Notes: a model not told the origin generated them from the letters alone. DNA of 64,000 bases from an uncultured Solirubrobacterales bacterium (GCA_963774395.1 CAVZET010000006.1:431148-495147), one strand, 5' to 3'; positions 41,970-63,469 are shown, numbered from the stretch's first letter. Numbers and translations: made by a program.

Positions 41970-43042
41970 GCGAAGCTCAGGATCTCAGTCGCGATCCGCT
42001 CCGCGGCATCGGGCTTGGCGATCTTGCGCGACGCCTCCCCCATGGCGGCGAGCCGCTCCCGGTCGGCGAGCAGCGGCGCGACGCGCTCGTGCGAGCAGGT
42101 CAGCGGTCAGATCGGCGTCCTCGACGACGATCGCGGCTCCCGCGTCCGCCATCCAGTTCGCGTTCGTGTGCTGATGGGCGCCGGTCGCATGCGGGTACGG
42201 CACGAGCACAGCACCGCGGCCGGCGGCGGTGAGCTCGAAGACCGAGCCGCCGGAGCGTGCCAGGGCGAGATCGCAGGCAGCGAGCGCGTCGCCGAGGTCG
42301 GGCAGGTACTCGAGCAACGTGTAGCCGGGGCGCGTCGCCGACGCTCGTTCGGATCTCCTCGTAGTCGCGGGTGCCGCTGACATGCAGGACGTGGAACGGC
42401 GCGCTCGCCGGCGTCCGGCCCCGCGAAGGCCTCGGCCGCAGCCTGGTTGATCGTTCGCGCGCCAAGGCTGCCGCCGAAGATCAGCAAGCAGGGGATCTCG
42501 GCCTCGATCACGAAGCGGCGGCGGGCCGCGGCCCGGTCCGCCTCGAGGATCGCCCGCGGCACCGGCCGGCCGGTGTGCAGGTAGAGGGCACCGTCGCGGC
42601 CGGGGATCCGAAAGGCGAGGCAGACGCGCTTTGCGCGCCGCGCCAACAGCCGGTTTGTGATCCCGAGGTGGCTGTCAGCCTCGGTCAGGACCAGGGGAAG
42701 CCGCATTCCGGCTGCCGCCATGCCCGCCGGCCAGGCGACGTAGCCGCCGCCGCCCATGACGGCATCGGCGTCGCGCTCACGCAGCAGGCGCCGCGCCGCG
42801 CGTACGGCGATCCCCGCCCGGCCCGCGGCGGCGGCGGCCTTGAGCGGGTTGCGGCGGTCGAGCCCGCGCACCGCAAGGAAGTCGATCTCATAGCCCGCCT
42901 TCGGGACCAGCTCGGCCTCGGCCCGCTCGCGCGTGCCGATGAAGCTGACCGAAGCGCCGCGCTCAGCGAGCGCGTCGGCGACGGCTAGTGCCGGCACCAC
43001 GTGACCGGCTGTCCCGCCGGCCGCGATCACCACGTGTGGCAC
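41966..43042 (-). CDS. murG: undecaprenyldiphospho-muramoylpentapeptide beta-N-acetylglucosaminyltransferase; two frameshifts
   Basis: HVVIAAGGTAGHVVPALAVADAL (42107..43042), ARSGGSVFELTAAGRGAVLVPYPHATGAHQHTNA (41985..42383), and a reconstructed end IATEILSFA whose TGA overlaps the murC ATG. Confidence 0.88.
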
Positions 43043-48836: not shown

Positions 48837-50326
48837 GCCGCTCCGACCCCCAGCTCGCGGAGCGCCTCGCGGGCGACCTCGCGGTCATCGAAGGGCTCCT
48901 TGCGCCCGCCCTCGAACTCCTGCCCCTGCTCGTGCCCCTTACCGGCGATGACGACGAGATCGCCCGAGCGGGCCTGCCCGAGCGCCCCTGCGATCGCCTT
49001 GCGGCGGTCGACTTCGACGACGACGTTCGAGCGATCACCGATCCCGGTGAGGACCTCGGCGATGATCGCGTCCGGATCCTCCGAGCGGGGGTTGTCGGAG
49101 GTGACGAAGCAGACGTCGGAGGCCTCGGCGGCGGCGGCGCCCATCAGGGGCCGCTTCGCCCGGTCGCGATCGCCGCCGCAGCCGACGACGCTGAGCAGGC
49201 GGCCGGCGGCCAGCCCCCGGGCGGCCTCGAGCACGTTGACGAGCGAGTCGGGCGTGTGCGCGTAATCGACCAGCACGGCGAAGTCCTGGCCCTCGCGGAT
49301 CGGCTCCATCCGGCCCGGCACGGGCTCAGCATCGCGAAGCGCCGCAACGGCGTCGGCAAGCGGCACGCCGAGGCCGCCGGCTGAGCGCGAGCGCGGCGAG
49401 CGCGTTCTCGACGTTGAAGCGGCCGGGCAGGCCGAGCGCAACGTCGTGGCTCCCGCCCTCGGCGCGCAGCGTGAACGTGGCGCCCGAGGCGTCGAACTCG
49501 AGGCCCGTGGCGCTCAGGTCGGCCTCCGCGCCCGCGGCGGAGAAGGTGACGATCCGGGTCTCGGTGCCGGCCTCCGCAAGGTCGGCGAGCAGCCTGCGCC
49601 CGTACTCGTCGTCGACGTTGACGGCGGAGAGGCGGGGCGGCTCACGCCTGCCTTCCTGCCCGGTGAAGAGCAGGCGCTTGGCCTCGTAGTAGTCGTCCAT
49701 GTCGGCGTGGAAGTCGAGGTGGTCCTGGGTCAGGTTGGTGAACGCTGCGGCGGCGACGTGCACGCAGTCGGCCCGGCCGAGAACGAGGGCGTGCGAGGAG
49801 ATCTCGACCGAGGCGGCGCCGTCCCCGGCGGCGAGCATCGCGGCGAAGGTGCGCTGCAGGTCGATCGCCTCGGGCGTCGTCCGCACCGCCTCGACGGTCT
49901 CGCCGCCGACGACCTGGCGAATGGTCCCGAGCAGCCCGCACTGGACGCCTGCTGCCTCGAGGATCGAGCGGGTCAGGAACGCCGTCGTCGTCTTGCCGTT
50001 CGTGCCGGTCACCGCGGCGAGCGCCAGGGTCGCGGTCGGATCGCCGAAGAAGCGCTGCGCGAGCGGCGCCATCGCCGCCCGGGCGTCATCGACGAGGAGC
50101 TCCGGCACGCCCAGCCCGAGCGGCCGCTCGACGACGAGCGCCGCCGCTCCCGCCTCCACGGCGGCCGGCGCGAACTCGTGTCCGTCGGAGCTCATCCCGA
50201 CCACGCAGAAGAACAGGCATCCGGTCGCGGCCTTGCGGCTGTCGAAGACCAGGTCCGTGATCTCGGGGTCGCCGCTGCCGCGTCAGTGAGCGCACCGATC
50301 CCGTCGCAGAGCTCGCCGAGCTTCAT
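48833..50326 (-). CDS. murE: UDP-N-acetylmuramoyl-L-alanyl-D-glutamate--2,6-diaminopimelate (or L-lysine) ligase; two frameshifts
   Basis: MKLGELCDG (ATG at 50326), AVTGTNGKTTTAFL, NLTQDHLDFH (49326..50204), and DYAHTPDSL, CGGDRDRAKRP, DNPRSEDP (48833..49441). Confidence 0.88.
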
Positions 50327-50490: not shown

Positions 50491-52166
50491 TCAGTTCGGC
50501 GGGATCCCCAGGTACGGCAACGCGAACGACGCGATCTTGCCGAAGGCGGGGGCGGCGACCGTGCCGCCGTAGTAGTTGCCGCCCTTCGGGTCGTCGACGA
50601 CGACGGCGGCGAGCAGCTGCGGGTGCTCGGCGGGCGCGAAGCCGACGAAGGAGGCGATGTACTGGGAGTCCGAGTAGGTGCCGTCGACGACCTTCTGCGC
50701 CGTACCGGTCTTGCCGGCGAGCACGTAGCCGGGGACCGAGACCGAGGCGGTGCCGCCGGGCTCGACAACGCCCTCGAGCATCGTCCGCAGATCGCGCGAG
50801 GTCTTACGGCTGATCACCCGGTGCCCGGTGTCGCGCGGCTCGCCGTGGCCGTCGACCGACTCGATCAGCCGCGGAGTGCGCAGCACCCCGCCGTCGGCGA
50901 TCGCTGCATAGGCGGAGATCATCTGCAGCGGGGTCACCGCCAAGCCCTGACCGATCGGCAGGTTGCCCATCGTCGAGCCGGAGTAGTCCTTCGGCCGGGG
51001 CACGATGCCCTGCTCCTCGCCCGGATAGTCGATCCCGGTCGGCTGGCCGAAGCCGAACTTGCGCACCCAGTGGTCGAAGCGGGAGCCGAACTGGCCGTGG
51101 TTGAGCTTCAGGCCGATCGTGTCCGCGCCGATGTTCGAGGAGACCTTGAGGATGTCGGCGACGCTCATCGTCTCGGGCCCGCGCGCCTCGGCATCGGTGA
51201 TCTGCCGATCGGCCACCTGTAGAACGGGCGGCAGGTCGAACGTCGTCGTCGGCTTGACGAGGCCGTCCTCCTCGGCGCCGGCGACCGTGAAGGCCTTGAA
51301 GGTCGAGCCGGGCTCGTAGGTGAACGAGGTCGCCATGTTCGAGAGCAGGTCGGGGTTGGCGTCTGGCGAGGTGCGTCGGATCGACCGCCGGCCAGCTCGC
51401 CATCGAGAGGATGTCGCCCGTCTGCGGGTCCATGACGATCGCCGTCGCGCCCTGCGGGATCGTAGGTCTCGCCGACCTCGTTGAGCACGCTCTCGGTCTC
51501 CGCCTGGATCTTGCCGTCGATCGTGAGCTGCACGTTGCCGCCGGTCTGCGCCTGCGTGACCACGTTGCGGCGGATCTCGTCGCCGAGCGCGTCGCGCGTC
51601 ACCGCGACCTGCCCGTCGGTCCCGTGCAGGACGCTGTCCTGGGAGGCCTCGACACCGAACAGGCCCTGACCGTCGGTGCCGACCGCGCCAATCAGGCGAC
51701 CGCCGATGTCGCCCTGCGGGTAGACGCGGCGCGAGTCGGGCAGCGTGCCGATCCCGTCGAGACCGAGCTTCTCGATCTTGTTCGGCGTCGATCAAGCGGC
51801 ACCTGGCGGGCGACGTACTCGAAGCCGGTGTTGGCGGTGAGCGCCTTGAGGATGTCCGCTTGCTTGCTGCCCTTGATCGAGCTTCGCGAGCTTCGCAGCG
51901 GTCTTGTCCGGGTTCGTCACCTGATACGGCGTCGCGAAGACGTCGGACGCGTCCTCGGAGACCGCGAGCCCCTCCCCGCGCCGGTCGAGGATGCTGCCCC
52001 GGGCGCCGGGCACGGTCACGGTCGCGGTCTGCTGGCTGAGTGAGCGTCGGCGCTGTACTCGCCACCCTTGACGGTCTGCAGCCACGCGGCGCGGCCGAGG
52101 ACGCCGCATGAAGGCGAGCGCGAAGAGCGCGAAGAGCAGCCCGACGCGGCGTTCGATCAGCTTCAC
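50491..52166 (-). CDS. ftsI: class B penicillin-binding protein (FtsI-type transpeptidase); several frameshifts
   Basis: TM N-terminus MKLIERRVGLLFALFALAF (GTG at 52166). Transpeptidase motifs YEPGSTFKAF, SSN (KVSSNIG) and KTGTA in ORF 50491..52065. Confidence 0.85.
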
Positions 52167-53049: not shown

Positions 53050-54015
53050 TCAGGAATCCCCTCCTCGGTCGAGCTTGACTGCGGCGCGCAGGCGCGCCGA
53101 GGAAGCCCTTGGGTTGTCGGATACTTCGCCGTCGGAGGGGGTAACGCCTCCCCGGGCCAGCGGCTCGGCCTCCGGCTCATGGCCGCACCGGCAGACCGGG
53201 CAGCTCGGGCGGGCAGATGCAGCCGCGCGCGAGATCGGCGAGGAAGCGCTTGACGCGGCGGTCCTCGTGCGAGTGGAAGCTGATCGCGGCGAGCCGGCCG
53301 CCGGGCACGAGCAGCTCCCAGGCCTCGGGCAGCGCCGCGTCGAGCGCGTCGAGCTCGCCGTTGACGGCGATCCGCAGGGCCTGGAAGGTGCGCTTGGCCG
53401 GGTTGCCGCGGCCGAAGCGCTCGGCCGGGGGCAGCGCCGGCCTTGACCGCCTCGGCGAGCTCGGAGGTGCGCTCGATCGGCCGGCGGGCGACGATCTGGC
53501 GGGCGACGGAGCGGGCGCGGCGCTCGTCGCCGTAGTTGCGGATGATCTCGGCGAGCCGGGCCTCGGGCCACTCGTTGACGATCTCGGCCGCGCTCGAGCT
53601 CCTGGCGCGGGATCCATGCGCATGTCGAGGGGGGCGTCGAAGGAGTAGGAGAAGCCGCGCTCCCAGGCGTCGATCTGCATCGAGGAGACGCCGAGGTCGA
53701 AGTAGACGAGGTCGGCGCGGACGCCTTCGGCGGCGAGCTCGGCGCAGCGCCTCGTCGAAGCGGGTCGAGATCAAGCGGGTCTCGCACGGCGCCTCGGCGG
53801 CGAACTCCTCGAAGCGCTCGATCGCGGCGGGGTCGCGGTCGACGGCAGATCAGCGTGCCCTCCGCCCCGATCCGCTCGGCGATCAGGCGCGCATGGCCGC
53901 CGGCGCCGAAGGTGCAGTCGACGACGACGTCGCCGGGGCCGGGTCGGTGAGCGCGGATCAGCTCGGCGGCGAGGACTGGGACGTGCTCGGCGGGCATGTA
54001 GGTCAGTGTGGCCAT
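53050..54015 (-). CDS. rsmH: 16S rRNA (cytosine1402-N4)-methyltransferase; several frameshifts
   Basis: HVPVLAAELI...VVDCTFGAGGHA (ATG at 54015), DAPLDMRMD, TFQALRIAVNGELDAL, GGRLAAISFHSHEDRRVK (53177..53680). Confidence 0.88.
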   Translation of the reverse strand: MATLTYMPAEHVPVLAAELIRAHRPGPGDVVVDCTFGAGGHARLIAERIGAEGTLICRRPRPRRDRALRGVRRRGAVRDPLDLDPLRRGAAPSSPPKASAPTSSTSTSASPRCRSTPGSAASPTPSTPPSTCAWIPRQELERGRDRQRVARGPARRDHPQLRRRAPRPLRRPPDRRPPADRAHLRARRGGQGRRCPRPSASAAATRPSAPSRPCGSPSTASSTRSTRRCPRPGSCSCPAAGSPRSASTRTRTAASSASSPISRAAASARPSCPVCRCGHEPEAEPLARGGVTPSDGEVSDNPRASSARLRAAVKLDRGGDS

Positions 54016-55019: not shown

Positions 55020-55783
55020 ATCGACGCACTTCTTCTGATCGTCGCCTTCATCGCCGGCACCGCCGGCGCCGGCGCCGCGATCGGCGGCGGCGGCCGCCGG
55101 GGCGATGCTGCTGCTGGCGATCCTGATCGTCTTCGTGATCGCCTCGAACCGGGCCAAGGAGGACTTCTTCAACGCCTACGCGACCGCCCGCGGCCTCAAC
55201 CGCCAGACGGCAGGGCTCCCTGCCGCCGACCACGCCGCTGCTGCGCAAGGGCGATCGCCGCTACGGCGAGCAGATCATGAACGGCACCCTGCCCAGCGGC
55301 CTGCCCGGCGCCCTCGCCCTCTACACCTACGAGGAGCGCAGCCGCGACAGCGACGGCAACGAGGACGTCGACTACTACCGCTTCACCGTCGTCATGCACG
55401 ACATGCCCGCGGTCGCCCAGCAGGTCAGCGACATCTACTGCCAGCGCCGCTCCGGCTTCCGCTGGATGGACTCCGCCGAGGACGTCTTCCGGCGGATGAA
55501 GCGGCTCGAGCTCGAGAGCACCGAGCTCGACAAGCGCTACGAGATCTTCTACGGCCCCAACGACGACGAGGTCTGGCTCAAGCGCCTGTTCTGCCCCAAG
55601 TTCATCGTCTGGCTCAGCGAGGCGGCGCCCGACGGGATCGCCTTCGAGTGCTCCGCCGGCAGCCTCTGCGTGAACCGCAAGGGCCACCTCGACAGCGCCG
55701 CCGAGCTCGACGGCATCTGCAACGCCGCCGGCGCGATCGCCCGCCGGCTGGCCGGCGAGGCCGAGCAGTCGACGCTGCGATAG
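55020..55783 (+). CDS. hypothetical membrane-anchored protein; frameshift(s) near 55095 and 55240; start not resolved
   Basis: Hydrophobic N-terminus (LLLIVAFIAGTAGAGAAIGGG.. / MLLLAILIVFVIASNRAKEDFFNAYATARGL) joins ORF 55277..55783 (GEQIMNGTLPSGLPGALALYTYEERSRDSDGNEDVDYYRFTVVMHD...). Confidence 0.5.
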
Positions 55784-55793
55784 GCGCCCGGCT

Positions 55794-56145
55794 CAGCTGT
55801 CGCCGTCGGTCGATGGCGCGCTCGTAGTTGAGCCGCATCAGCGCGATCGCCTCGGCGACGTCCGCGTCGGACTCGAGCCGCCGGGCGCCAAGGCCGTGGC
55901 GATCGATCGGGTGCGTCGTGATCCGGCCCGCGTCGATGAGCTCGCGCCATTGGGCTCTTGGGAAGGCGAAGTGCGCGACGCGGTCCCCGTGCACGTGGCC
56001 GATCTGCCGGCGGCCGACGCTGAAGCCGTACTCCCCGCGCTTGCCCCAGGCCCGCCGTCACGCCCGGCCATGAGGTCACCTCGGTCTCGATCAGCTCAGC
56101 CGGGCCGCCCGCGATACCGGGCCGGTCCTCCATCGTCGTGCTCAT
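55794..56145 (-). CDS. small hypothetical protein (luciferase-domain/PF17648-like, from memory only); one frameshift
   Basis: MSTTMEDRPGIAGGPAELIETEVTSWPGVTAG (55549..56145) joins HGDRVAHFAFPRAQWRELIDAGRITTHPIDRHGLGARRLESDADVAEAIALMRLNYERAI (55614..55994). Confidence 0.45.
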
Positions 56146-56246
56146 CGCCGTCTCCTCTCGAGGTTGATCAGGTTCCGGCTCGAGCGTACGACCTCAAGTG
56201 CCCTTGAAGTCAAGGCCTGCCGCGAGAAACGGGGTGAGTGGCGGGA

Positions 56247-56558
56247 TCAGGGCCGCGTGAAGATCGCGTGGGATCCAACTCGGCGCCAGCGGACCGCCGG
56301 CTCGCCTTCAATCGTGATCCACTCCCACGTGGCGCGACCGTCGGGGTCGGTGAAGCTCCAGGTCAGCTCCCAGATCCCCGGCGCTCCCTGGACTCCCTTG
56401 ATCCCCAGGCGTGCCGGCCAGGGCCTGCCGGGATCCTCGAGGTGCTCGTCCAGCGCGGGGTTGAACTCCTCGAGCACGACCCGTCGGAACTCCTCCTTGT
56501 GCGCTGCCGAGAGCTTCCGGTAGTCGCGCGCGAAGCTCTCGGTCCGTTCGTATCTCAC
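56247..56558 (-). CDS. putative type II toxin, RelE/ParE superfamily-like; intact
   Basis: 103-aa ORF (FARDYRKLSAAHKEEF...GIKGVQGAPGIWELTWSF...VRWRRVGSHAIF) whose start overlaps the stop of an AbrB-type antitoxin gene (ATGA). Confidence 0.55.
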   Translation of the reverse strand: MRYERTESFARDYRKLSAAHKEEFRRVVLEEFNPALDEHLEDPGRPWPARLGIKGVQGAPGIWELTWSFTDPDGRATWEWITIEGEPAVRWRRVGSHAIFTRP

Positions 56559-56851
56559 TCGTCCTTGTCGAGCTCGGCGAGGAAGTCGGCGGCACTCTCC
56601 GAGCGCCGCACGCGGCCGGCCGCGACGTCGGCGTCGGCCTGACGCTCCATCTCCTGCCAGCGCTCACTCCAGAACCACTTCTGATCCGCGGGGACGGGCA
56701 CATGCGGCCGCAGCTCGATCACGCCGTCATCGCGCTCGGCGACCTCGACTTGCGCGCCGGGCTCGTCCAGATGATGCTTCTTGCGGAACTCCGCAGGCAG
56801 GGCGAGGAGGCCGCGCTGCTGGATGGTGACGAAGGTGGTCCTGTTCGCCAT
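56555..56851 (-). CDS. putative type II antitoxin, AbrB/MazE/SpoVT fold; intact
   Basis: MANRTTFVTIQQRGLLALPAEFRKKHHLDEPGAQVEVAERDDGVIELRP (swapped-hairpin motif pattern) plus an acidic tail. The ATG at 56851 is preferred to the longer ORF start at 56905. Confidence 0.6.
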   Translation of the reverse strand: MANRTTFVTIQQRGLLALPAEFRKKHHLDEPGAQVEVAERDDGVIELRPHVPVPADQKWFWSERWQEMERQADADVAAGRVRRSESAADFLAELDKDE

Positions 56852-56861
56852 GCGGCGGAGC

Positions 56862-57735
56862 CTAGCAGTGATACTGCAATGCAGCATTACCGTGGATTGC
56901 TTCAACCAGCCCGCTGAGCAGCGCGTCGGCGTTGGCGGCGATCGCGGCGCCGACCAGCAGCAGGACCGACGGGACGAGCAGCAGGGCGACGACGAGCTGG
57001 ATCTTCGGCGCGGCGCGGGCGGCGTCCTCGGCGATCGCGCGGCCCTGCTCGACGCGCAGCGCGGCCGCCTGCGCCTGAAGGCCGGCGGCGAGCGGCGAGC
57101 CGAGTCGCCGGGAGCGGTCGATCAGGACCGAGAGGCGGGCGAGATCGGGCCCGCCCTCTGCCCCGAGGCGGGCGAGGAGTGCGCCTGCGGGACCCCGCAC
57201 TCGATCTCCGCCCAGGCCCCGGCGAGCTCGGTGTGCAGGGGCCCGGCGCCGAGCGCCGTGCGCGCGTCGGCGAGCAGCCGCGGCGGGCCGGCCCCGGTCT
57301 CCGCCCGCGCCGCCATCAGCTCGAGCGCGCCGGGCAGGGCGCGGGCGATCGCCCGGCGGCGGCGGCTGCCGAGCCGCTCGAGGACGAGGTCGGGCCCGGC
57401 CGCGGCGCCGCGGGCACGGCGAGCAGACCAGCAGCCCCGTCCGCCCTGGCGCCGCGGGCGCAAGCGAGACCGCCAGCGGCATCGCCGAGCAGGCCGACGC
57501 CGCCCGGGCCGCGAGCACGACTTGACGGTGAGCCGGCCGCCGAGCCCGGCGTCCCTGATCCGCCGCTCGACGCCCGGCGTCGCCGGGGAGGAGATCAGCC
57601 GCCCGGTCGGGCTGCGCTGCGCGCGCGCCGCCGCCCGCCGACGGCGTCGCCGACCGCGTCCCCGTGCGACCCCCAGAGCTCGCGGATCGCGGCCGCGGCA
57701 AGCAGCACCGCGCCGATCGCCGTCAGCGCGCTCAC
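56862..57735 (-). CDS. tadC: type II secretion system F-family protein, TadC-like; frameshifts
   Basis: ALPGALELMAARAETGAGP...AWAEIECGVP (57122..57463) and SRRLGSPLAAGLQAQAAALRVEQGRAIAEDAARAAPKIQLVVALLLVPSVLLLVGAAI (56862..57701). The GTG at 57735 overlaps the tadB stop. Confidence 0.65.
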
Positions 57736-58580
57736 GCCCGGACCCGGCCGAGTCGCTGGATCACGATCCAGGCGAGCAGCTGCAGGCCGACCGCGATGGC
57801 GACCAGCACGGCGGCCAGCGGCTCGCTGAGCAGGCTGCCGAGGAAGCCCGGCGCGACGAGCTCGACCAGCAGGCCGACGGCGACGGGCATCGCGACGACC
57901 ATGCCGCCGGTGAGGCGAGCCTGCGCGGTCGCCGAGCGCGCCTCGGCCCGCGCCCGCTGGCGCGCCTCGGCGGCGTCGCCGTGGCGGGCGAGCAGGCCGA
58001 CGAGATCGCCGCCCGAGCGCTCCTGCGAGCAGATCGCGGCGATCAGCTCGCCGATCTCCGCCGACCCCGAGCGCTGCGCCATCGCCTCCAGCGCCGCCCG
58101 CGGCGGCACGCCGAGCTCGAGGTCGGCGCAGACCCGGCCGAGCTCCGTCGCCGGCGGGCCTTCGAGCGTCGGGGCGAGATCGACGAGCCCGCGGCGGATC
58201 GAGCCGCTCGAGCCGATCCCGTCGGCGAGCCCACGGGCGATCTCCGGCACCGCCTGCTTCCAGGGCAAGCCGGTAGCGGCGCTCGCCGCGGGAGATCAGG
58301 CGGCCCGCGACCCACGGGCCGAGGGCGGCGAGCGCGACGGCGGGCCCGGGGCCGGCACGGTCAGCGTCAGCAGAGCCAGCCCGGCGCCGCTCAGGATCCC
58401 GAGCCGGCGGCGCTCGATCACGGTCGGCAGCCGACCCTCGCGGCCGGTCCGCAGCAGCGCCTCGGCCGCCGAGCCGACCCAGCGGCGGACGACGGGGAGG
58501 CTCGAGAGCAGCTCGGCGACCGCGAGCGCCAGCGCGGCCCCGCCGGCGCCGGCGATCAGGATCGGCAGCGCGACCCCCAC
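57732..58580 (-). CDS. tadB: type II secretion system F-family protein, TadB-like; one frameshift near 58300
   Basis: TM N-terminus MGVALPILIAGAGGAALALAVAELL (58296..58580) and ADLELGVPPRAALEAMAQRSGSAEIGELIAAICSQERSGGDLVGLL...ARLTGGMVVAMPVAVG (57732..58268). Confidence 0.68.
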
Positions 58581-58581
58581 C

Positions 58582-59763
58582 TCAGCCCCTCCACCGCCTC
58601 CCGCCGCCAGAGCTCGCGCAGCTCCGGGGCGTCGGCGTCACCCTCGATCGCCAGAGTAGGACACGGCCGCCCGGCCGCCGCCCGGCAGGCGACTGACGTG
58701 GACGACCCGGTCGAGCGCGCCCGCAAGCTGCTCTCGCACGACCTCGGCACCGACCCGCAGGTCGGACATCAGCGCGAGCATCTCGACCCGGCGCAGGGCC
58801 TCGGCCGGCCCGTTCGCGTGCACCGTCGAAAGCGCGCCCGGCATGACCCGTGTTGAGCGCGACGATCAGGTCCATCGCCTCGGCGCCGCGGACCTCGCCG
58901 ATGATCAGCCTGTCGGGCCGCATGCGCAGGGCATTGCGGACCAGATCGCGGATCGTCACCGCACCGGCGCCGCCGAGCCCCGCAGGCCGGCTCTCGAGGC
59001 GGACGACGTGCGGCTGGCAGAGCCGCAGCTCGGCCGCGTCCTCGATCGTGATCACGCGCTCGCCCGCGGCGATGAAGGCCGAGAGCGCGTTGAGCAGCGT
59101 CGTCTTGCCCGACCCCGTGCCGCCGCTGATCAGGATGCTGCGCCGCGCCTCGACGTCCGCGCGGAGCAGGTCCATGAGTTCGGCCGGAACCGAGCCGCGC
59201 TCGATCAGCTCCTCAGGCCCCGGACGCAGCGCCGCGAAGCGCCTGATCGAAATCGTCACGCCGTCGATCGCCAGCGGCGGGATGATCACATTGACGCGCG
59301 AGCCGTCATCGAGGCGGCCGTCGGCGATCGGGCTGAGCTCGTCGACACGGCGGCCGAGGGGGCCGAGGATGCGTTCAACGACGTCGTGCAGCTGCGCCTC
59401 GCTCTCGAAGGCCGAGTCGCGCCGCTCGAGGCGGCCGGCGCGCTCGATCCAGACCTCGTCGTGCCCGTTGACGAGCACCTCCTCGACCTCGGGGTCGCCG
59501 AGCAGCTCCTCGAGCGGTCCAAGGCCGACGGTCTCGCGCAGCAGGCGCGCCCGCAAGAGCTCCCTGCTGGCGGCCGAGAGCAGCGCCGCCTCCTCGCCGA
59601 GGAGCGCCTCGAGCTGCTCGGCAACCGCCGGGGCAGATCCACCCCGGCGGCGATCGCCGCCGCCCGATGTCGATCGATCAGGCGGCCGCGCAGCTCCTCG
59701 GCCAGCGCGCCCGACCCGCTCCTCGAGCAGCTCCTCGGGATCGCGTGCCCGGGCCGCGCTCAT
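58582..59763 (-). CDS. cpaF: CpaF/TadA-family secretion ATPase; frameshifts
   Basis: EEVLVNGHDEVWIERAG...RVNVIIPPLAIDGVTISIRRF...ILISGGTGSGKTTLLNAL...ITIEDAAEL...RMRPDRLIIGEVRGAEA (58582..60099) and STVHANGPAEAL (58638..58844). Confidence 0.82.
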   Translation of the reverse strand: MSAARARDPEELLEERVGRAGRGAARPPDRSTSGGGDRRRGGSAPAVAEQLEALLGEEAALLSAASRELLRARLLRETVGLGPLEELLGDPEVEEVLVNGHDEVWIERAGRLERRDSAFESEAQLHDVVERILGPLGRRVDELSPIADGRLDDGSRVNVIIPPLAIDGVTISIRRFAALRPGPEELIERGSVPAELMDLLRADVEARRSILISGGTGSGKTTLLNALSAFIAAGERVITIEDAAELRLCQPHVVRLESRPAGLGGAGAVTIRDLVRNALRMRPDRLIIGEVRGAEAMDLIVALNTGHAGRAFDGARERAGRGPAPGRDARADVRPAGRCRGRARAACGRARPGRPRQSPAGRRPGGRVLLWRSRVTPTPRSCASSGGGRRWRG

Positions 59764-60469
59764 CGCCCCAGCAACCTGACCTCGCGCGCGTAGTTGTCGG
59801 CCTCGATCACGGCCAGCGCCCGGCGACCGGTCGAGGGCCAGCGTTGCCAGCCAGCCTCCCGTCGCGGGGTCGGCACCGCTGCCGTCGTCGGCGGACCGGG
59901 GTGAGCGCGAGCAGGCGGACGTCGCGCGCGAGGACGTGGACGCGAGGGTCGGTCGTCGACCCGGGCTCGTCCGCGGCGAGCACGTCGACCCTCGAGCCGG
60001 GCCGCGGCAAGCCACTGCTCGAGCTCGCGGGGCCGCCGCTGACCTCGACCTCGACTGGTCGCAGGCCGGCGGGCAGCGAGCTCGGGCCGTGCTCGTCATG
60101 GGAAGAGCGACGCGCCAGCAACGCGGCCGGTCAGATACGACCCGGCGGGAACCGGCACCGCGGTTCGTGATCCGGCCGCGGACGCCGGGTCAGCGAGCGC
60201 GTCGGGCGGCGCGAAGCGGGCTGGGATCTCGCGGCTGCCGAGGCGCTTGGCGACGGCCGGCGCATCGAGCCGGCTACCCCGCTCGAGCGGGCGCTCGGCG
60301 ACGACGACCGTCCGCAACGGGCCAAGCGCCGGCATCGGAGCCCGCCCCGGAGTGTGCTGCGGCGCCGGCCGAGAGGGCGGCGCAGAGCAGCGCCAGCACG
60401 CCGAGGACGAGGGCGCGGCGTCGGCCGCGGCCGACGGGCGGGCCGGGATCGGCGGCGCGCGGCCGCCAT
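59760..60469 (-). CDS. cpaB: Flp pilus assembly protein CpaB/RcpC-like; frameshifts
   Basis: Reconstructed N-terminal TM RRALVLGVLALLCAALSAGAAA, then LRTVVVAERPLERGSRLDAPAVAKRLGSREIPARFAPPDAL...VPAGSYLT (60096..60653) and GLRPVEVEVSGGPA...GSRVDVL (59807..60121). The ATG overlaps the kinase stop. Confidence 0.6.
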
Positions 60470-61167
60470 CAGCGCGCGCCGCTCGGACGGTCCGCGCGGG
60501 GCAGCTCGAGCGCCGCGACGACGGTCCCCTCCGCGTCCAGAGCGGGGTGGAATCAGCGCCCCGGCCGCGGAGGCGGCCTCCCTGCCGGCGATCCGCAGGC
60601 CGTGGCCGCGGCGCGGGTCCGCGACGCCGGTCGGCCTGCGGGATCGCCTCCATCGAGCGGCGCCGCTCCGGGGCGTCGCCGGTTGCGGACCTCGAGCCGC
60701 AGCGAGCGCTCGCTGATCTCGGCGTCGAGCTCGACGGGGCCGCGGCCGTGCTCGACCCCGTTGGCGATCAGGTTGTCGAGTGCCATGCCGAGCCGCGAGC
60801 GATCGGCCATCGAGCGCGCGCGGGCCGGGCCGTGGCGCGGACGCGGACGCGCGGCCCGGCGCCGCCCCAGCGGGCCGCCGCATCGCCGAGCAGGTCCGCG
60901 AGCGTGAAGCTCTGCCGCCGCGGCGCCGCTCGCCCACCGTCGACCGCGGCCTCGAGATCGGCGAGCGCCGTCCGCAGCTGTGCGGCGAGCGGATCGGTGC
61001 CCTCCGGATCGAGGGCGAGCGTCATCGCCTGCAGCGGCCGGCGCAGCTCATGCAGGGCCTCGCGCAGCGCGCGCCGTCGGCGGCGCTCACGCCGGCAGGC
61101 GCCAGGTCGCGATCGCGCCGGTCGCGAGCAGCGCGGCGAGCGTCACTGCCACGAGCACCGTCCTCAC
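60469..61167 (-). CDS. small membrane-anchored sensor histidine kinase (one TM, HisKA, HATPase_c; no obvious sensor domain); frameshifts
   Basis: VRTVLVAVTLAALLATGAIATW (GTG at 61167), reconstructed H-box LREALHELRRPLQAM, N-box LGMALDNLIANGVEHG (60553..60810), and G-box region GHGLRIA. End FHPALDAEGTVVAALELP, with a TGA at 60469..60471. Confidence 0.65.
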
Positions 61168-61881
61168 CCGCCCTCGACCAGCCGGTAGCCGACGCCCCAG
61201 CAGTTGATCACGAAGCGGCCGCGCTCGGGGTCGAGCTTGCGCCGCAGGCGGCTGGCGTGGGAGTCGAGCGTTCGCGTGCGGCCAGCCGCGCGGAAGCCCC
61301 AGACGTCGCGCAGCAGCTCCTGCTTGGTGAAGACCCGCGTCGGCTCGGCCGCCAGCGCGCGCAGCAGCTCGAACTCCTTGTTGGCGAGCTGCACCTCGCG
61401 CTCGCCGACGCGGACCTCGCGGCTCGCCGAATCGACCCTCAGGGGCCCGATCCGAAGCGGCCCGCCCCGGGCCCCGTCCCGGGCCTCGAGCAGCCGCCGC
61501 AGGCGGGCCAGCAGCTCCGGGTAATGAAACGGCTTGCATAGGTAATCGTCGGCGCCCTCGCCGAAGCCGCGAACCCGGTCCTCGGCCGAGCCAGCGGCCG
61601 GTGATGACGAGCACCGGCAGCCCGGCGTCGAACTCCGCCGCAGGTCCGTCGGAGGCGCGGATCCGGCGCAGGACGTCGAGGCCGGCGGCGTCGGGCAGGG
61701 CGAGGTCGAGCAGCAGCGCGTCGGGATGGCTGTAGCGGCAGAAGCGCAGCGCGTCGGCCGCGGTCGGCGCGGCGAGCGCGTGGTAGCGGTCCGCCTCGAG
61801 GTTGTCGACGAGCAGCTCCCGCGTCACCTCGTCGTCCTCGCAGACGACGATCGTCCCCAGGTCATCGATCTCCGGCAGCAT
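61164..61881 (-). CDS. OmpR/PhoB-family response regulator; frameshift near 61590
   Basis: Receiver TIVVCEDDEVTRELLVDNLE...DALLLDLALPDAAGLDVLRRIR...LPVLVITG (ATG at 61881, preceded by AAGGAG). Winged helix LANKEFELLRALAAEPTRVFTKQELLRDVWG...LDSHASRLRRKL...GVGYRLV (61164..61394). Confidence 0.8.
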
Positions 61882-61987
61882 CTCTGTCTCCTTCGGTAGG
61901 CCGGCGTGTGCATCCCGGCAAACCCCGGGCCACCTCCGCGCGCCCCCAGAGGGGCTCGCCCGGGCGTTTCGTCGGGAATCGCCCCCC

Positions 61988-62335
61988 TCACAGGGGGTCA
62001 GATCCAGACGAAACCGGCGGATGTGTCGGCGCCGGCAGCTCGAGCACCGCGCTCGCACCCCGCTCGACCAGCATCCGCCGCGGCCCCACCCCCAGCTCGC
62101 TGCGTATGCACGTGCCCTCGGCGTTGAGGAAGTGGACGTCGAGCGCGAACCGCATCCCGAAGGTATGGATCGAGCGGCAGCGCTCGAGCAGCAATCCCCT
62201 CGGCGCCGACTCTCGCCGGAGCAGAGCCAGCCCGAGCAGGCGGCTCAGCGGCGTCGCGGCGACCGGCACACGCAGGCCCAGGACCTCCGCCTGCGGCAGG
62301 TCGCGGAAGCGTCGGGCGGGCGGGCCGGGTCGCAC
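61988..62335 (-). CDS. DUF192 (COG1430) domain-containing protein; intact
   Basis: 115-aa ORF: ATPLSRLLGLALLRRESAPRGLLLERCRSIHTFGMRFALDVHFLN matches the DUF192 pattern (GL...R, IHTFGMRFP.D) from memory. Confidence 0.6.
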   Translation of the reverse strand: MRPGPPARRFRDLPQAEVLGLRVPVAATPLSRLLGLALLRRESAPRGLLLERCRSIHTFGMRFALDVHFLNAEGTCIRSELGVGPRRMLVERGASAVLELPAPTHPPVSSGSDPL

Positions 62336-62475
62336 GCCCCCTCAAGCCCGTTCGCCCTCGGCGCGCCCCACACAGCCGGGGGCAATCCGCCGGACCTGGA
62401 CGAGGGCAGGCGTCGAGGCCACCTACCCCGGGGGGCGGCAGCCTCGCGCTATCCGGCTCTATCGGTGTCTGCGTA

Positions 62476-62712
62476 TCAGCGCTTGCCGCCCTTACCCCCC
62501 TTGCCGTCGTGCTTGTGGCCCTTGCTGCCGTGCTTATGGCCCTTGCTGTCGTGCTTGTGGCCCTTGCCCTTGCTGTCGTGCTTCTGCCCGTGGTGGTCGT
62601 GCTTGCTGGCACTCTGGGCGGGCGAGGCGACGGCCTGGGCAGCGCCAACTCCGCCGAGCGCGAGGGCTGCGGTGGCTCCGAGGGCTGCAATTCTGGTCCG
62701 GTTGATGATCAT
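62476..62712 (-). CDS. small secreted His/Lys-rich repeat protein (78 aa); intact
   Basis: ATG at 62712 preceded by GGAGAAAAGGAGAAAAGC. Sec-type signal MIINRTRIAALGATAALALGGVGAAQA, then KHDHHGQKHDSKGKGHKHDSKGHKHGSKGHKHDGKGGKGGKR. Confidence 0.65.
   Translation of the reverse strand: MIINRTRIAALGATAALALGGVGAAQAVASPAQSASKHDHHGQKHDSKGKGHKHDSKGHKHGSKGHKHDGKGGKGGKR
62506..62606 (-). repeat. imperfect 18-27 nt tandem DNA repeats encoding the HKHDSKG units
   Basis: The plus strand shows gtcgtgcttgtggcccttgct repeated with small variations four to five times. Confidence 0.7.
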
Positions 62713-63004
62713 GCTTTTCTCCTTTTCTCCTTTCGAGCCGCAGGAGGCGGCTTCCGATGGACTCCGAGTCTGCTCCCCGGCCGGCAAGCGGCAGGGAACG
62801 GTCGGGTTAGGAGCAGGCAAAGCTCGTCCGCGGCCCTGGCGCCGCCCGCGGCGCTACCCGTCGACGGCCCGCCGCGCATTCCTCCCGGGCGGCGATGGGT
62901 GCAAGCCTGCGTTCAGGCGCCGGCGGGCCTCGACCGCGATCGTGAGCGTTCGAAAACATCCGCATCCCGCGGCGGGGGAGGCCCGCGTCGGGAGGTCACA
63001 ACTG

Positions 63005-63469
63005 GTGGAAAAGGCAACGCGAAGAGGCAACTACGAGTCGGGCTCCGACTACGTTCTCGAGTACGGGGAGCTCCGCTTCGCGTTCAACGAGCAGGACTTC
63101 TCACAGCGAGTCGAGCAGGCCGCCGTGAAGCTCAACTTCCTTCAGCCCGGGCTGGCGGACGAGGAAATGCACGACCTCGTCGAGCTCGCCGTCAACGGCG
63201 AGATCCGCGAGGCAGCTTCGGCGCTCGGCGAGCATGTCAACGAGAACTGGGGCGAGCTGGTCGACGGCTCCAACCGCAGCCTCGTGCACTGGATCCGGCG
63301 CCTCGTGTTCCGCGGCGCCTGGCTCGATCAGCGGGTCAAGGAGGGCGAGCTCGACATCGCCTTCGATCCCGACACGAGCACCTTCGGCTACATCCAGCCC
63401 GATCGCGACTCCGAGCCGATCGAGCTCAGCCGCGAGCCTTCCTGGGCCGCGCTGGCGTACCAGTCGTAG
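63005..63469 (+). CDS. acidic hypothetical protein (about 154 aa)
   Basis: Protein-like tail of ORF 61802..63469 (NYESGSDYVLEYGELRFAFNEQDFSQRVEQAAVKLNFLQPGLADEEMHDLVELAVNGE...). In-frame GTG at 63005, 10 nt after GGGAGG. I recognise no family. Confidence 0.5.
   Translation: MEKATRRGNYESGSDYVLEYGELRFAFNEQDFSQRVEQAAVKLNFLQPGLADEEMHDLVELAVNGEIREAASALGEHVNENWGELVDGSNRSLVHWIRRLVFRGAWLDQRVKEGELDIAFDPDTSTFGYIQPDRDSEPIELSREPSWAALAYQS

What the first reader, a model, noticed from the sequence alone, without database searches (positions are those of the whole stretch)
56247..62335. Two-component system, Tad-like secretion genes and a toxin-antitoxin pair fused into one tightly coupled minus-strand string
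The order on the minus strand is DUF192, response regulator, histidine kinase, CpaB, CpaF ATPase, TadB, TadC, antitoxin, toxin. The junctions are overlaps or near-abutments. RR/HK is GTGA at 61164..61167. HK/CpaB is TGATG at 60467..60471. CpaB/CpaF is ATGA at 59760..59763. CpaF/TadB has a 1-nt gap. TadB/TadC is GTGA at 57732..57735. TadC to antitoxin has a 10-nt gap, and antitoxin/toxin is ATGA. A minimal kinase (one TM, no sensor domain) translationally coupled to pilus-assembly genes is unusual. In addition, no Flp-type pilin, TadE/F pseudopilin, prepilin peptidase or TadZ/CpaE ATPase is visible anywhere in the string. The machine may therefore secrete or assemble something other than a classical Flp pilus, or may depend on genes elsewhere.
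Basis: partly seen in the sequence, partly recalled or inferred. Interest (0 to 1): 0.6.

Follow-up and report, generated by a model that had tools for sequence, protein, structure and literature searches.

The report
TadZ-less Tad pilus cluster, error-ridden assembly
This is a pilus-assembly (Tad-type) gene cluster with its own two-component regulator that is conserved across soil Solirubrobacterales; it looks broken here only because this assembly has single-base errors throughout, its pilin gene lies elsewhere in the genome, and the toxin-antitoxin pair is a recent add-on.

Summary
The gene order (DUF192, OmpR-type regulator, short kinase, CpaB, CpaF, TadB, TadC, antitoxin, toxin) is correct. 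The junction strings are correct apart from one letter. The six genes from regulator to TadC are not open frames here. They carry 21 private 1-2-nt indels in 5.1 kb. Such frame breaks occur genome-wide, about 70 per 100 kb against 2-5.5 in better relatives, and they also split essential cell-wall genes. They are therefore most likely assembly errors, not pseudogenes.

In better assemblies the same genes are intact and overlap by 4 nt. The regulator-kinase-CpaB triad with CpaF-TadB-TadC is conserved across Solirubrobacterales. The toxin-antitoxin pair (AbrB/MazE-type antitoxin, RelE/ParE-fold toxin) occurs only in this genome and one close relative.

No TadZ, TadE or dedicated TadV was found. 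A highly conserved Flp-type prepilin (ERG|QGTVEY...) sits upstream of rph on another contig and occurs in 39 of 41 relatives. The only prepilin peptidase in relatives is PilD-like. The machine therefore most likely depends on genes elsewhere.

DUF192 recurs beside CpaF homologues in several phyla. The scan's first readers noted the same arrangement in two other genomes. Verdict: a lineage-specific, TadZ-less variant of a known system. Interest is modest.

The parts
61988..62335 (-). DUF192 (PF02643) protein, 115 aa, intact ORF; no signal peptide or TM helix seen
   Evidence: Pfam DUF192 scores 32.7 bits against a cut-off of 27. An orthologue lies directly upstream of the RR in about 12 of 30 related loci.
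61164..61881 (-). OmpR-family response regulator (receiver plus winged-helix domain), split by one private 1-nt insertion near 61593
   Evidence: Response_reg 71 bits and Trans_reg_C 76 bits on the joined pieces. tblastn gives two frames here against one frame in G008, G002 and G007. The indel is shown. The start ATG at 61881 is preceded by GAAGGAG.
60469..61167 (-). Short histidine kinase (about 225-233 aa): one N-terminal TM helix, then the H-box (HELRRPLQ) at once, then N and G boxes. No extracellular, HAMP or PAS domain. Broken by 5 private indels.
   Evidence: Pieces lie in frames 0, 2, 0 and 1. The intact G007 orthologue is 225 aa; its HATPase_c score is 19.6 bits, below the cut-off. Indels lie at 61102, 60816, 60809, 60644 and 60539.
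59760..60469 (-). CpaB/RcpC-like protein (N-terminal TM helix, SAF and RcpC domains), broken by at least 4 private indels
   Evidence: The G007 orthologue scores SAF 35 bits, RcpC 27.7 bits and TIGR03177 pilus_cpaB 66.5 bits. Indels lie at 60456, 60128, 59892 and 59826.
58582..59763 (-). CpaF/TadA-type secretion ATPase, broken by 4 private indels; the only Tad-type ATPase found in the genome
   Evidence: T2SSE 193 bits and TIGR03819 TadA-family 319 bits. The genome has 4 T2SSE matches; I read the other three as PilB- or PilT-like. Indels lie at 59712, 59646, 58836 and 58655.
57732..58580 (-). TadB-type platform protein (T2SSF), 2 private indels
   Evidence: T2SSF 60.5 bits on the G007 orthologue. 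Indels lie at 58356 and 58256.
56862..57735 (-). TadC-type platform protein (T2SSF), 5 private 1-nt deletions; its 3' end differs from relatives where the TA cassette begins
   Evidence: T2SSF 40.6 bits. Indels lie at 57641, 57523, 57426, 57411 and 57177, and the end diverges at about 56905.
56555..56851 (-). AbrB/MazE-type antitoxin, 98 aa, intact; part of a cassette found only in G000 and G008
   Evidence: MazE_antitoxin 22.3 bits (cut-off 24.7) and AbrB-family TIGR01439 21.2 bits. tblastn finds it only in L002 among L002-L008.
56247..56558 (-). RelE/ParE-fold toxin candidate, 103 aa, intact; belongs to an unannotated family
   Evidence: No Pfam, NCBIfam, PADLOC or PDB sequence match. There are 174 homologues, all named hypothetical. 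The AlphaFold model has pLDDT 93. Its best Foldseek matches are YoeB/ParE 6n90, RelE 2khe and RelE1 9g12, with probability 1.0 and TM 0.54-0.63.

Best explanation
The locus is the Solirubrobacterales version of a Tad (type IVc) pilus assembly core. CpaF is the motor ATPase. TadB and TadC form the membrane platform. CpaB is a single-pass SAF/RcpC envelope protein.

These genes are transcribed together with a dedicated OmpR-type regulator and a sensor-less single-TM kinase. A cytoplasmic DUF192 protein usually sits in front.

The likely substrate is a Flp-type prepilin encoded elsewhere, upstream of rph. It is probably cleaved by the genome's only A24 prepilin peptidase, the PilD-type enzyme of the type IVa pilus cluster. 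No TadZ positioning ATPase exists in these genomes.

In this assembly the six central genes look frameshifted because the assembly carries uncorrected single-base indels genome-wide. The organism most likely has intact genes.

The AbrB/MazE-RelE/ParE toxin-antitoxin pair is a mobile cassette. It landed at the 3' end of tadC in the recent ancestor of two genomes and is not part of the machine.

Shown here: gene identities, conservation, the indel pattern, the existence of the prepilin, and the TA fold. Inferred: co-transcription, that the Flp-like protein is the substrate, that PilD processes it, and that the two-component system controls pilus genes.
For: Identities.

Intact orthologues with 4-nt overlaps at every junction from RR to TadC occur in G007 and in short-read MAGs.

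Conservation: all 41 relatives match the region. The full order holds in 12 Solirubrobacterales loci. The kinase orthologue occurs in 43 of 301 genomes of the class, almost all in this order. The RR-HK-CpaB triad holds in 28 of 30 loci.

Assembly errors:
- The window has 21 private indels, and G005 has its own different ones.
- The genome has 2,446 frame-switch events in 3.5 Mb, about 70 per 100 kb. The rate is 5.5 in G007 and 2.0 in G003.
- rsmH, the penicillin-binding protein gene, murE, murG and murC are split into 2-4 frames.
- Completeness is 60.8% although there are only 11 contigs.

Prepilin: the motif scan gave two hits genome-wide. The small one is conserved in 39 of 41 relatives. It has a variable leader and an invariant mature part. 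JGI names two clusters of homologues 'Flp pilus assembly pilin'.

Peptidase: one A24 gene per good relative, lying beside genes that I read as type IVa pilus genes.

TA pair.
Against: That the indels are errors therefore rests on comparison and on the genome-wide rate.

The Flp-like protein matches no Pfam or NCBIfam pilin model. Its structure model has low confidence, pLDDT 67.

Nothing links the prepilin physically to this cluster. PilD-type peptidases do not always cleave Flp prepilins. TadZ and TadE/F, normally needed for Tad pili, were not found. Some lineages have CpaB without this kinase, so the kinase is not obligatory. No expression data are available.
Confidence: 0.7

Rival explanations
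1. The frameshifts are real. In this strain the Tad cluster and its two-component system are decaying pseudogenes, perhaps after the TA cassette inserted.
For: The sequence as given has 21 frame-breaking indels in six genes. No reads were available to check them.
Against: The same density of frame breaks is found over the whole genome, and it hits essential genes. After each shift the amino-acid similarity and the GC3 periodicity continue undiminished in the new frame. G008 carries the same TA cassette and has all six genes in single frames. The low completeness with few contigs fits an error-rich long-read MAG.
Confidence: 0.05
2. The cluster is not a Flp-pilus machine. It is a TadZ-less Tad-like secretion or display system for another substrate. 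One candidate is the conserved 300-350-aa protein that carries the same Flp-like N-terminus. Another is an unrecognised cargo.
For: No TadZ, TadE/F or dedicated TadV was found, and no pilin lies in or next to the cluster in any relative examined. A second protein with the motif RGQATPEYVGLVLLV and a large C-terminal domain is conserved in many relatives.
Against: A small, typical Flp-like prepilin with an all-helical prediction exists and is as widely conserved as the cluster. Pilins and peptidases are known to be encoded away from, or shared between, type IV filament systems (PMC6668835). CpaB, CpaF, TadB and TadC are the ordinary pilus-assembly set.
Confidence: 0.15
3. The Flp-like prepilin is assembled by the type IVa pilus machine (PilB/PilT), and this cluster lacks a substrate of its own in these genomes.
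For: The only prepilin peptidase lies beside genes that I read as type IVa pilus genes. The prepilin is unlinked to either machine.
Against: The G/XXXXEY motif and the short, globular-domain-free mature protein are the Flp class, not type IVa. Relatives carry separate PilA-like type IVa pilins. A substrate-less cluster would not be expected to stay conserved and intact across an order.
Confidence: 0.08

Closest known systems
Tad/Flp (type IVc) pilus loci: tad of Aggregatibacter actinomycetemcomitans, cpa of Caulobacter crescentus
   Same: It has a CpaF/TadA ATPase, a split TadB plus TadC platform and a CpaB/RcpC protein. An Flp-type prepilin with the G/XXXXEY motif is present in the genome.
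   Different: TadZ/CpaE, recognisable TadE/F pseudopilins and a dedicated TadV/CpaA are missing. There is no secretin, as expected for a monoderm. The pilin gene is unlinked. A two-component system and DUF192 are built into the operon.
Monoderm actinobacterial Tad loci (Bifidobacterium breve tad2003, Micrococcus luteus tad clusters, M. tuberculosis Rv3654c-Rv3660c)
   Same: Like these, it is a secretin-less Tad core in a high-GC Gram-positive lineage. M. luteus also has a CpaB-like SAF protein encoded together with a histidine kinase (PMC8467076).
   Different: The known loci carry TadZ/Ssd and have Flp (DUF4244) and TadE-like genes next to tadC; none is present here. The CpaF here scores below the cut-off of the actinobacterial TIGR03819 model (319 against 373 bits). 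The M. luteus kinase has a PAS domain and is paired with CpaE.
PprAB two-component system beside the Pseudomonas aeruginosa flp-tad-rcp locus
   Same: In both cases a dedicated two-component system is encoded next to Tad genes and presumably controls them.
   Different: PprA/PprB belong to a different family and have different domain architectures. PprA has sensor domains. They are not translationally coupled to cpaB.
Intramembrane-sensing histidine kinases (BceS, LiaS type)
   Same: The kinase lacks an extracellular sensor domain and is encoded next to a membrane machine that could supply the signal.
   Different: The kinase here has one TM helix, not two. No interaction with CpaB has been shown. 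This is an analogy only.
Type II toxin-antitoxin pairs with an AbrB/MazE-fold antitoxin and a RelE/ParE-fold toxin
   Same: The genes are of the right size, the antitoxin comes first, and they overlap by 4 nt. The antitoxin has an AbrB-type N-terminus and the toxin a RelE/ParE fold.
   Different: The toxin family has no Pfam or NCBIfam model and no named member. Its activity and target are untested.

Membership tests
Tad (type IVc) pilus system | TadA/CpaF-type hexameric secretion ATPase | tested here: met
   T2SSE scores 193 bits. The best NCBIfam model is TadA-family TIGR03819 at 319 bits, below its cut-off of 373.
Tad (type IVc) pilus system | Platform split into two adjacent T2SSF proteins, TadB and TadC | tested here: met
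   Two consecutive T2SSF proteins of 282 and 279 aa score 60.5 and 40.6 bits.
Tad (type IVc) pilus system | TadZ/CpaE (ParA/MinD-like ATPase with an atypical receiver domain) | tested here: not met
   TIGR03815 gives only generic ParA-like matches of 33 bits or less against a cut-off of 154, in 5 genomes. TadZ_N gives nothing, but that model also rang in no control genome. No such gene lies in any related locus.
Tad (type IVc) pilus system | Flp-family prepilin with a G/XXXXEY cleavage motif and a hydrophobic helix | tested here: met
   The motif and hydrophobic stretch occur at G000 C7:441999-442260, outside the window, and are invariant in 28 aligned homologues. Two JGI clusters are named Flp pilin. 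There is no Pfam Flp_Fap or DUF4244 match. The link to this machine is inferred.
Tad (type IVc) pilus system | Dedicated short prepilin peptidase TadV/CpaA | tested here: not met
   Each good relative has one A24 gene, 247-258 aa with a Cys-rich N-terminal part, beside genes that I read as type IVa pilus genes. G000 has none; the region is missing from the assembly.
Tad (type IVc) pilus system | TadE/TadF pseudopilins | tested here: inconclusive
   Pfam TadE gives 20.5 bits in G000 (below the cut-off) and one hit over the cut-off in G015. A 300-350-aa protein with a Flp-like N-terminus is conserved, but it is not a recognised TadE/F.
Tad (type IVc) pilus system | CpaB/RcpC (SAF plus beta-clip) protein | tested here: met
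   SAF scores 35 bits (cut-off 21). RcpC scores 27.7 (cut-off 28.8). TIGR03177 scores 66.5 (cut-off 71).
OmpR/histidine-kinase two-component system | Receiver domain plus winged-helix output in the regulator | tested here: met
   Response_reg scores 71 bits and Trans_reg_C 76 bits.
OmpR/histidine-kinase two-component system | DHp H-box and HATPase_c catalytic domain in the kinase | tested here: inconclusive
   The H-box HELRRPLQ, the N-box DNLIANG.EHG and the G-box GHGLRI are visible. HATPase_c scores only 19.6 bits (cut-off 26.4) and there is no HisKA hit.
RelE/ParE type II toxin | RelE/ParE fold, with an upstream overlapping antitoxin | tested here: met
   The model has pLDDT 93. Foldseek probability is 1.0 to YoeB/ParE, RelE and RelE1. 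The antitoxin is AbrB/MazE-like and overlaps by GTGA. Catalytic residues and toxicity were not tested.
DUF192 (PF02643) | Match to the family model over its cut-off | tested here: met
   32.7 bits against a cut-off of 27; the G007 orthologue scores 29.4 bits.

The most novel reading that the evidence does not exclude
The sensor-less single-TM kinase is translationally coupled to the single-TM CpaB. It reads the state of the Tad machine itself through membrane contact with CpaB, as BceS reads its transporter. The OmpR-type regulator then adjusts expression of the unlinked flp gene. This gives the TadZ-less pilus a built-in assembly or surface-contact feedback loop. DUF192, found beside CpaF homologues in at least seven other lineages, would be a general cytoplasmic accessory factor of Tad machines that has so far been overlooked.
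Probability: 0.15. Interest if true: 0.6.

Novelty: new variant of a known kind. Interest (0 to 1): 0.3.

Why it matters
Tad pili drive adhesion, biofilm formation and surface sensing, but they are barely studied in Thermoleophilia, which are abundant in soil. A core that is conserved across an order works without TadZ, keeps its pilin and peptidase elsewhere, and carries its own minimal kinase. It could show which Tad parts are truly required in monoderms and how assembly is sensed.

The practical lesson matters as much. This assembly has a frame-breaking error roughly every 1.4 kb. Any claim about ORFs or pseudogenes from this genome, and from several sister MAGs with low completeness and few contigs, must be checked against better relatives.

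Tried and rejected
The indels therefore could not be checked on reads and no RNA-seq operon test was possible.
- Pfam Flp_Fap, DUF4244 and TadE six-frame searches found no credible pilin. A motif scan was needed instead.
- I first took the ATPase match at G000 C7:648664 for a second Tad locus. Its G007 orthologue is a 347-aa protein that I read as PilT-like, with no Tad neighbours. Rejected.
- Gaps between DUF192 and RR, or between CpaB and CpaF, in some relatives looked as if they might hold TadZ or pilins. They hold an opposite-strand MFS transporter, TetR, glyoxalase, AraC and macro-domain genes. Rejected.
- Sequence searches for the toxin in Pfam, NCBIfam, PADLOC and the PDB gave nothing. 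Only the fold comparison worked.
- The structure model of the Flp-like prepilin was of low confidence (pLDDT 67), so no fold search was run on it.
- The promoter and terminator scan of the locus was uninformative.
- Partner prediction for CpaB and DUF192 was not possible, because no multimer prediction is on hand.


Full report
**What is in the sequence**

The window has about 70-80% G+C at the locus. Stop-to-stop ORFs and three-frame translations of 56000-62800 show recognisable pieces of an OmpR-type regulator, a histidine kinase, CpaB, CpaF, TadB and TadC. These pieces lie in different reading frames of the minus strand. A GC3 frame plot shows the coding frame jumping repeatedly inside each gene. 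Only three genes are continuous ORFs: DUF192 (61988-62335), the antitoxin (56555-56851) and the toxin (56247-56558).

- GTGA at RR/HK.
- TGATG at HK/CpaB.
- ATGA at CpaB/CpaF.
- TGA-G-GTG at CpaF/TadB.
- GTGA at TadB/TadC.
- TAG plus 10 nt plus ATG at TadC/antitoxin.

The antitoxin/toxin overlap is GTGA, not ATGA. DUF192 is separated from the regulator's ATG (61881, behind GAAGGAG) by 106 nt.

**Why the genes look broken**

The genome holding the window has 3.5 Mb in 11 contigs at 71% G+C. Its marker-gene completeness is only 60.8%. Several sister genomes show the same pairing of few contigs with low completeness.

I aligned the locus with its three closest relatives (G008 at 90%, G005 at 92% and G002 at 79% identity). 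The window has 14 private insertions and 7 private deletions of 1-2 nt in 5.1 kb. G005 has six or seven different private insertions.

With intact G007 proteins as queries, G008, G002, G007, G015 and G001 give one frame per gene. The window, G005 and G010 give several frames per gene.

A codon-position Viterbi decoder counts same-strand frame switches that are not explained by a stop codon. It finds 2,446 in the genome, about 70 per 100 kb, and 52 in the 64-kb window. The same decoder finds 5.5 per 100 kb in 200 kb of G007 and 2.0 in 100 kb of G003. G008 gives 53 per 100 kb.

Essential genes elsewhere in the window are split into 2-4 frames relative to intact G007 genes. These are rsmH, the division penicillin-binding protein gene, murE, murG and murC.

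Relatives returned by name are Solirubrobacterales MAGs. From their record names I take many of them to be long-read MAGs; this was not checked. The breaks are therefore most likely assembly errors.

**What the genes are**

| Gene | Evidence |
|---|---|
| Regulator | Response_reg 71 bits, Trans_reg_C 76 bits |
| Kinase (G007, 225 aa) | TM helix at about residues 4-19; H-box histidine at 36; N and G boxes visible; HATPase_c 19.6 bits (below cut-off); no sensor, HAMP or PAS domain |
| CpaB | TM helix, SAF, RcpC; near the CpaB equivalog cut-off |
| CpaF | T2SSE; best NCBIfam model is TadA-family TIGR03819 |
| TadB, TadC | one T2SSF domain each |
| DUF192 | over its Pfam cut-off |

In G007 and in two short-read MAGs the genes from the regulator to TadC overlap by 4 nt or nearly abut.

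**Conservation**

All 41 sampled relatives match parts of the locus. Twelve Solirubrobacterales loci found through CpaF keep the order RR-HK-CpaB-CpaF-TadB-TadC. The cluster lies between rho and mraZ in the loci I read in full.

The kinase orthologue occurs in 43 of 301 genomes of the class. Nearly all of these are in the window's own order: 25 of 26 in its family. In 28 of 30 loci the kinase is flanked by the regulator and CpaB. CpaB orthologues are slightly more widespread, and some lineages have CpaB without this kinase.

Where the cluster is interrupted in relatives, the inserts are unrelated opposite-strand genes, not pilus genes. The arrangement is an order-level conserved feature, not a strain oddity. 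First readers of this scan noted the same layout in two other genomes.

**Missing parts**

The genomes have four T2SSE-family ATPases each. One is PilB-type, two I read as PilT-like, and the fourth is this CpaF. This is therefore the only Tad-type motor.

Six-frame searches in G000 and four relatives gave the following:
- No Flp_Fap match.
- No credible DUF4244 match.
- For TadE, one hit over the cut-off in G015 and none over it in the window's genus.
- No TadZ; only generic ParA-like matches appeared, and the TadZ_N model also rang in no control genome.

Each good relative has one A24 peptidase of 247-258 aa. It lies beside genes that I read as pilM/N/O and minor type IVa pilins. That region is absent from the G000 assembly. 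The type IVa pilus ATPase genes lie within 9 kb of the start of contig C7.

**A pilin elsewhere**

A motif scan of all six frames of the genome looked for G-x4-E-Y followed by a hydrophobic stretch. It gave two hits.

The first hit lies at C7:441999-442260, directly upstream of rph and rdgB. It encodes ...LASERG|QGTVEYVGLVLLVAVLMGGMVAAVGG..., with a mature part of 53 aa. In this assembly its leader is itself hit by an indel. Intact relatives give an 85-aa prepilin.

This prepilin is found in 39 of 41 relatives. In 28 aligned homologues the leader varies while GQGTVEYVGL and most of the mature part are invariant. Two homologue clusters are named Flp pilin by JGI, and none has a Pfam domain. The structure model is all-helical but of low confidence.

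The second hit is a conserved 300-350-aa protein with the same kind of N-terminus.

The literature notes that prepilin peptidases are sometimes shared between type IV filament systems and that the location of pilin genes varies (PMC6668835).

**The toxin-antitoxin pair**

The antitoxin has an AbrB/MazE-type N-terminus. The toxin matches no sequence family. It has 174 unannotated homologues. It models confidently, with pLDDT 93. The model matches YoeB/ParE, RelE and RelE1 structures.

The pair is present only in G000 and G008. It is absent from G005 (92% identical), G002, G010, G007, G015 and G001. In G007, G005 and G010 the same luciferase-domain gene follows tadC directly. The pair is a recent insertion at the end of tadC, not part of the conserved unit.

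**DUF192**

An iterated profile built from the locus's DUF192 finds DUF192-like ORFs within 7 kb of CpaF homologues in 20 of 80 loci. Twelve of these lie outside Solirubrobacterales: Shewanella, Pseudoalteromonas, Alcaligenaceae, Chromatiales, Acidobacteriaceae, Omnitrophota and Anaerolineae. In the proteobacterial loci they lie just after tadB-tadC on the same strand.

A 2025 paper notes the same association in Erysipelotrichales and Helcococcus (PMC12786226). Other notes of this scan mention it too. Its role is unknown.

**Verdict**

The order, the junctions and the absences hold. The genes are not intact ORFs here, and the TA pair is an add-on.

The thing itself is a lineage-specific variant of a Tad pilus core. 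It lacks TadZ and is coupled to a two-component system, and its pilin and peptidase are encoded elsewhere. It fails a strict Tad membership test on TadZ, on a dedicated TadV and, so far, on TadE/F. I therefore class it as a variant that most likely works like a Tad pilus, not as a canonical member.

The most novel reading that remains open is that the sensor-less kinase senses the machine through CpaB. Interest is modest.

Noticed in passing
whole window and genome (for example 53056-54012 rsmH, 50494-52166 PBP, 48839-50279 murE, 41975-42997 murG): Frame-breaking single-base indels are everywhere: 52 frame-switch events in the 64-kb window and 2,446 in the genome. Essential dcw genes are split into 2-4 frames. 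Any ORF-level finding from this genome needs checking against G007, G003 or short-read MAGs.
   Followed up: yes
G000 contig C7:441999-442260 (outside the window); L123, L120: A conserved 85-aa Flp-type prepilin gene lies directly upstream of rph-rdgB. Its leader is variable and its mature part invariant. It is found in 39 of 41 relatives. No Pfam model recognises it. In this assembly its leader carries a frameshift.
   Followed up: yes
G000 contig C7:664144-665202 (outside the window); L124:3164-4045: A conserved 300-350-aa protein with a Flp-like N-terminus (RGQATPEYVGLVLLV) and a C-terminal domain with YWLYYPDS...DDWES motifs. It lies next to genes that I read as ergothioneine-synthesis genes. 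It may be a pseudopilin-like or pilus-displayed protein.
   Followed up: partly
L048, L053, L086, L087, L090, L093, L097, L099, L100, L103, L105, L107, L110: DUF192-like ORFs lie within 7 kb of CpaF homologues in 12 of 68 loci from other phyla. In the proteobacterial loci they sit right after tadB-tadC on the same strand. This is a recurrent, unexplained Tad accessory gene.
   Followed up: partly
63029-63469 (+): A divergently oriented 146-154-aa gene (VEKATRRGNYESGSDYVLEYGELRF...) is very highly conserved at the same place in G007 and in two other Solirubrobacterales loci. It matches no Pfam or NCBIfam family.
   Followed up: partly
56247-56558 (-): The toxin belongs to an unannotated family of about 103 aa. 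It has 174 homologues, all named hypothetical, and invariant residues including a W-R-R-x-G-x-H stretch. The model has a confident RelE/ParE fold, so this is a candidate for a new family model.
   Followed up: partly
55549-56193 (-): The gene after the TA cassette is a 117-aa luciferase-domain (PF17648) protein, frameshifted here and intact in G007. It follows tadC directly in G007, G005 and G010, which lack the cassette.
   Followed up: partly
62476-62712 (-): A 78-aa secreted His/Lys-rich repeat peptide is encoded upstream of DUF192 on the same strand. It has no family match.
   Followed up: no
G000 contig C7:2299-8698: PilT- and PilB-type genes lie near the start of contig C7. tblastn finds no trace in this assembly of the G007 peptidase or of the gene next to it, which I read as pilM. 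The assembly is incomplete as well as error-rich.
   Followed up: partly
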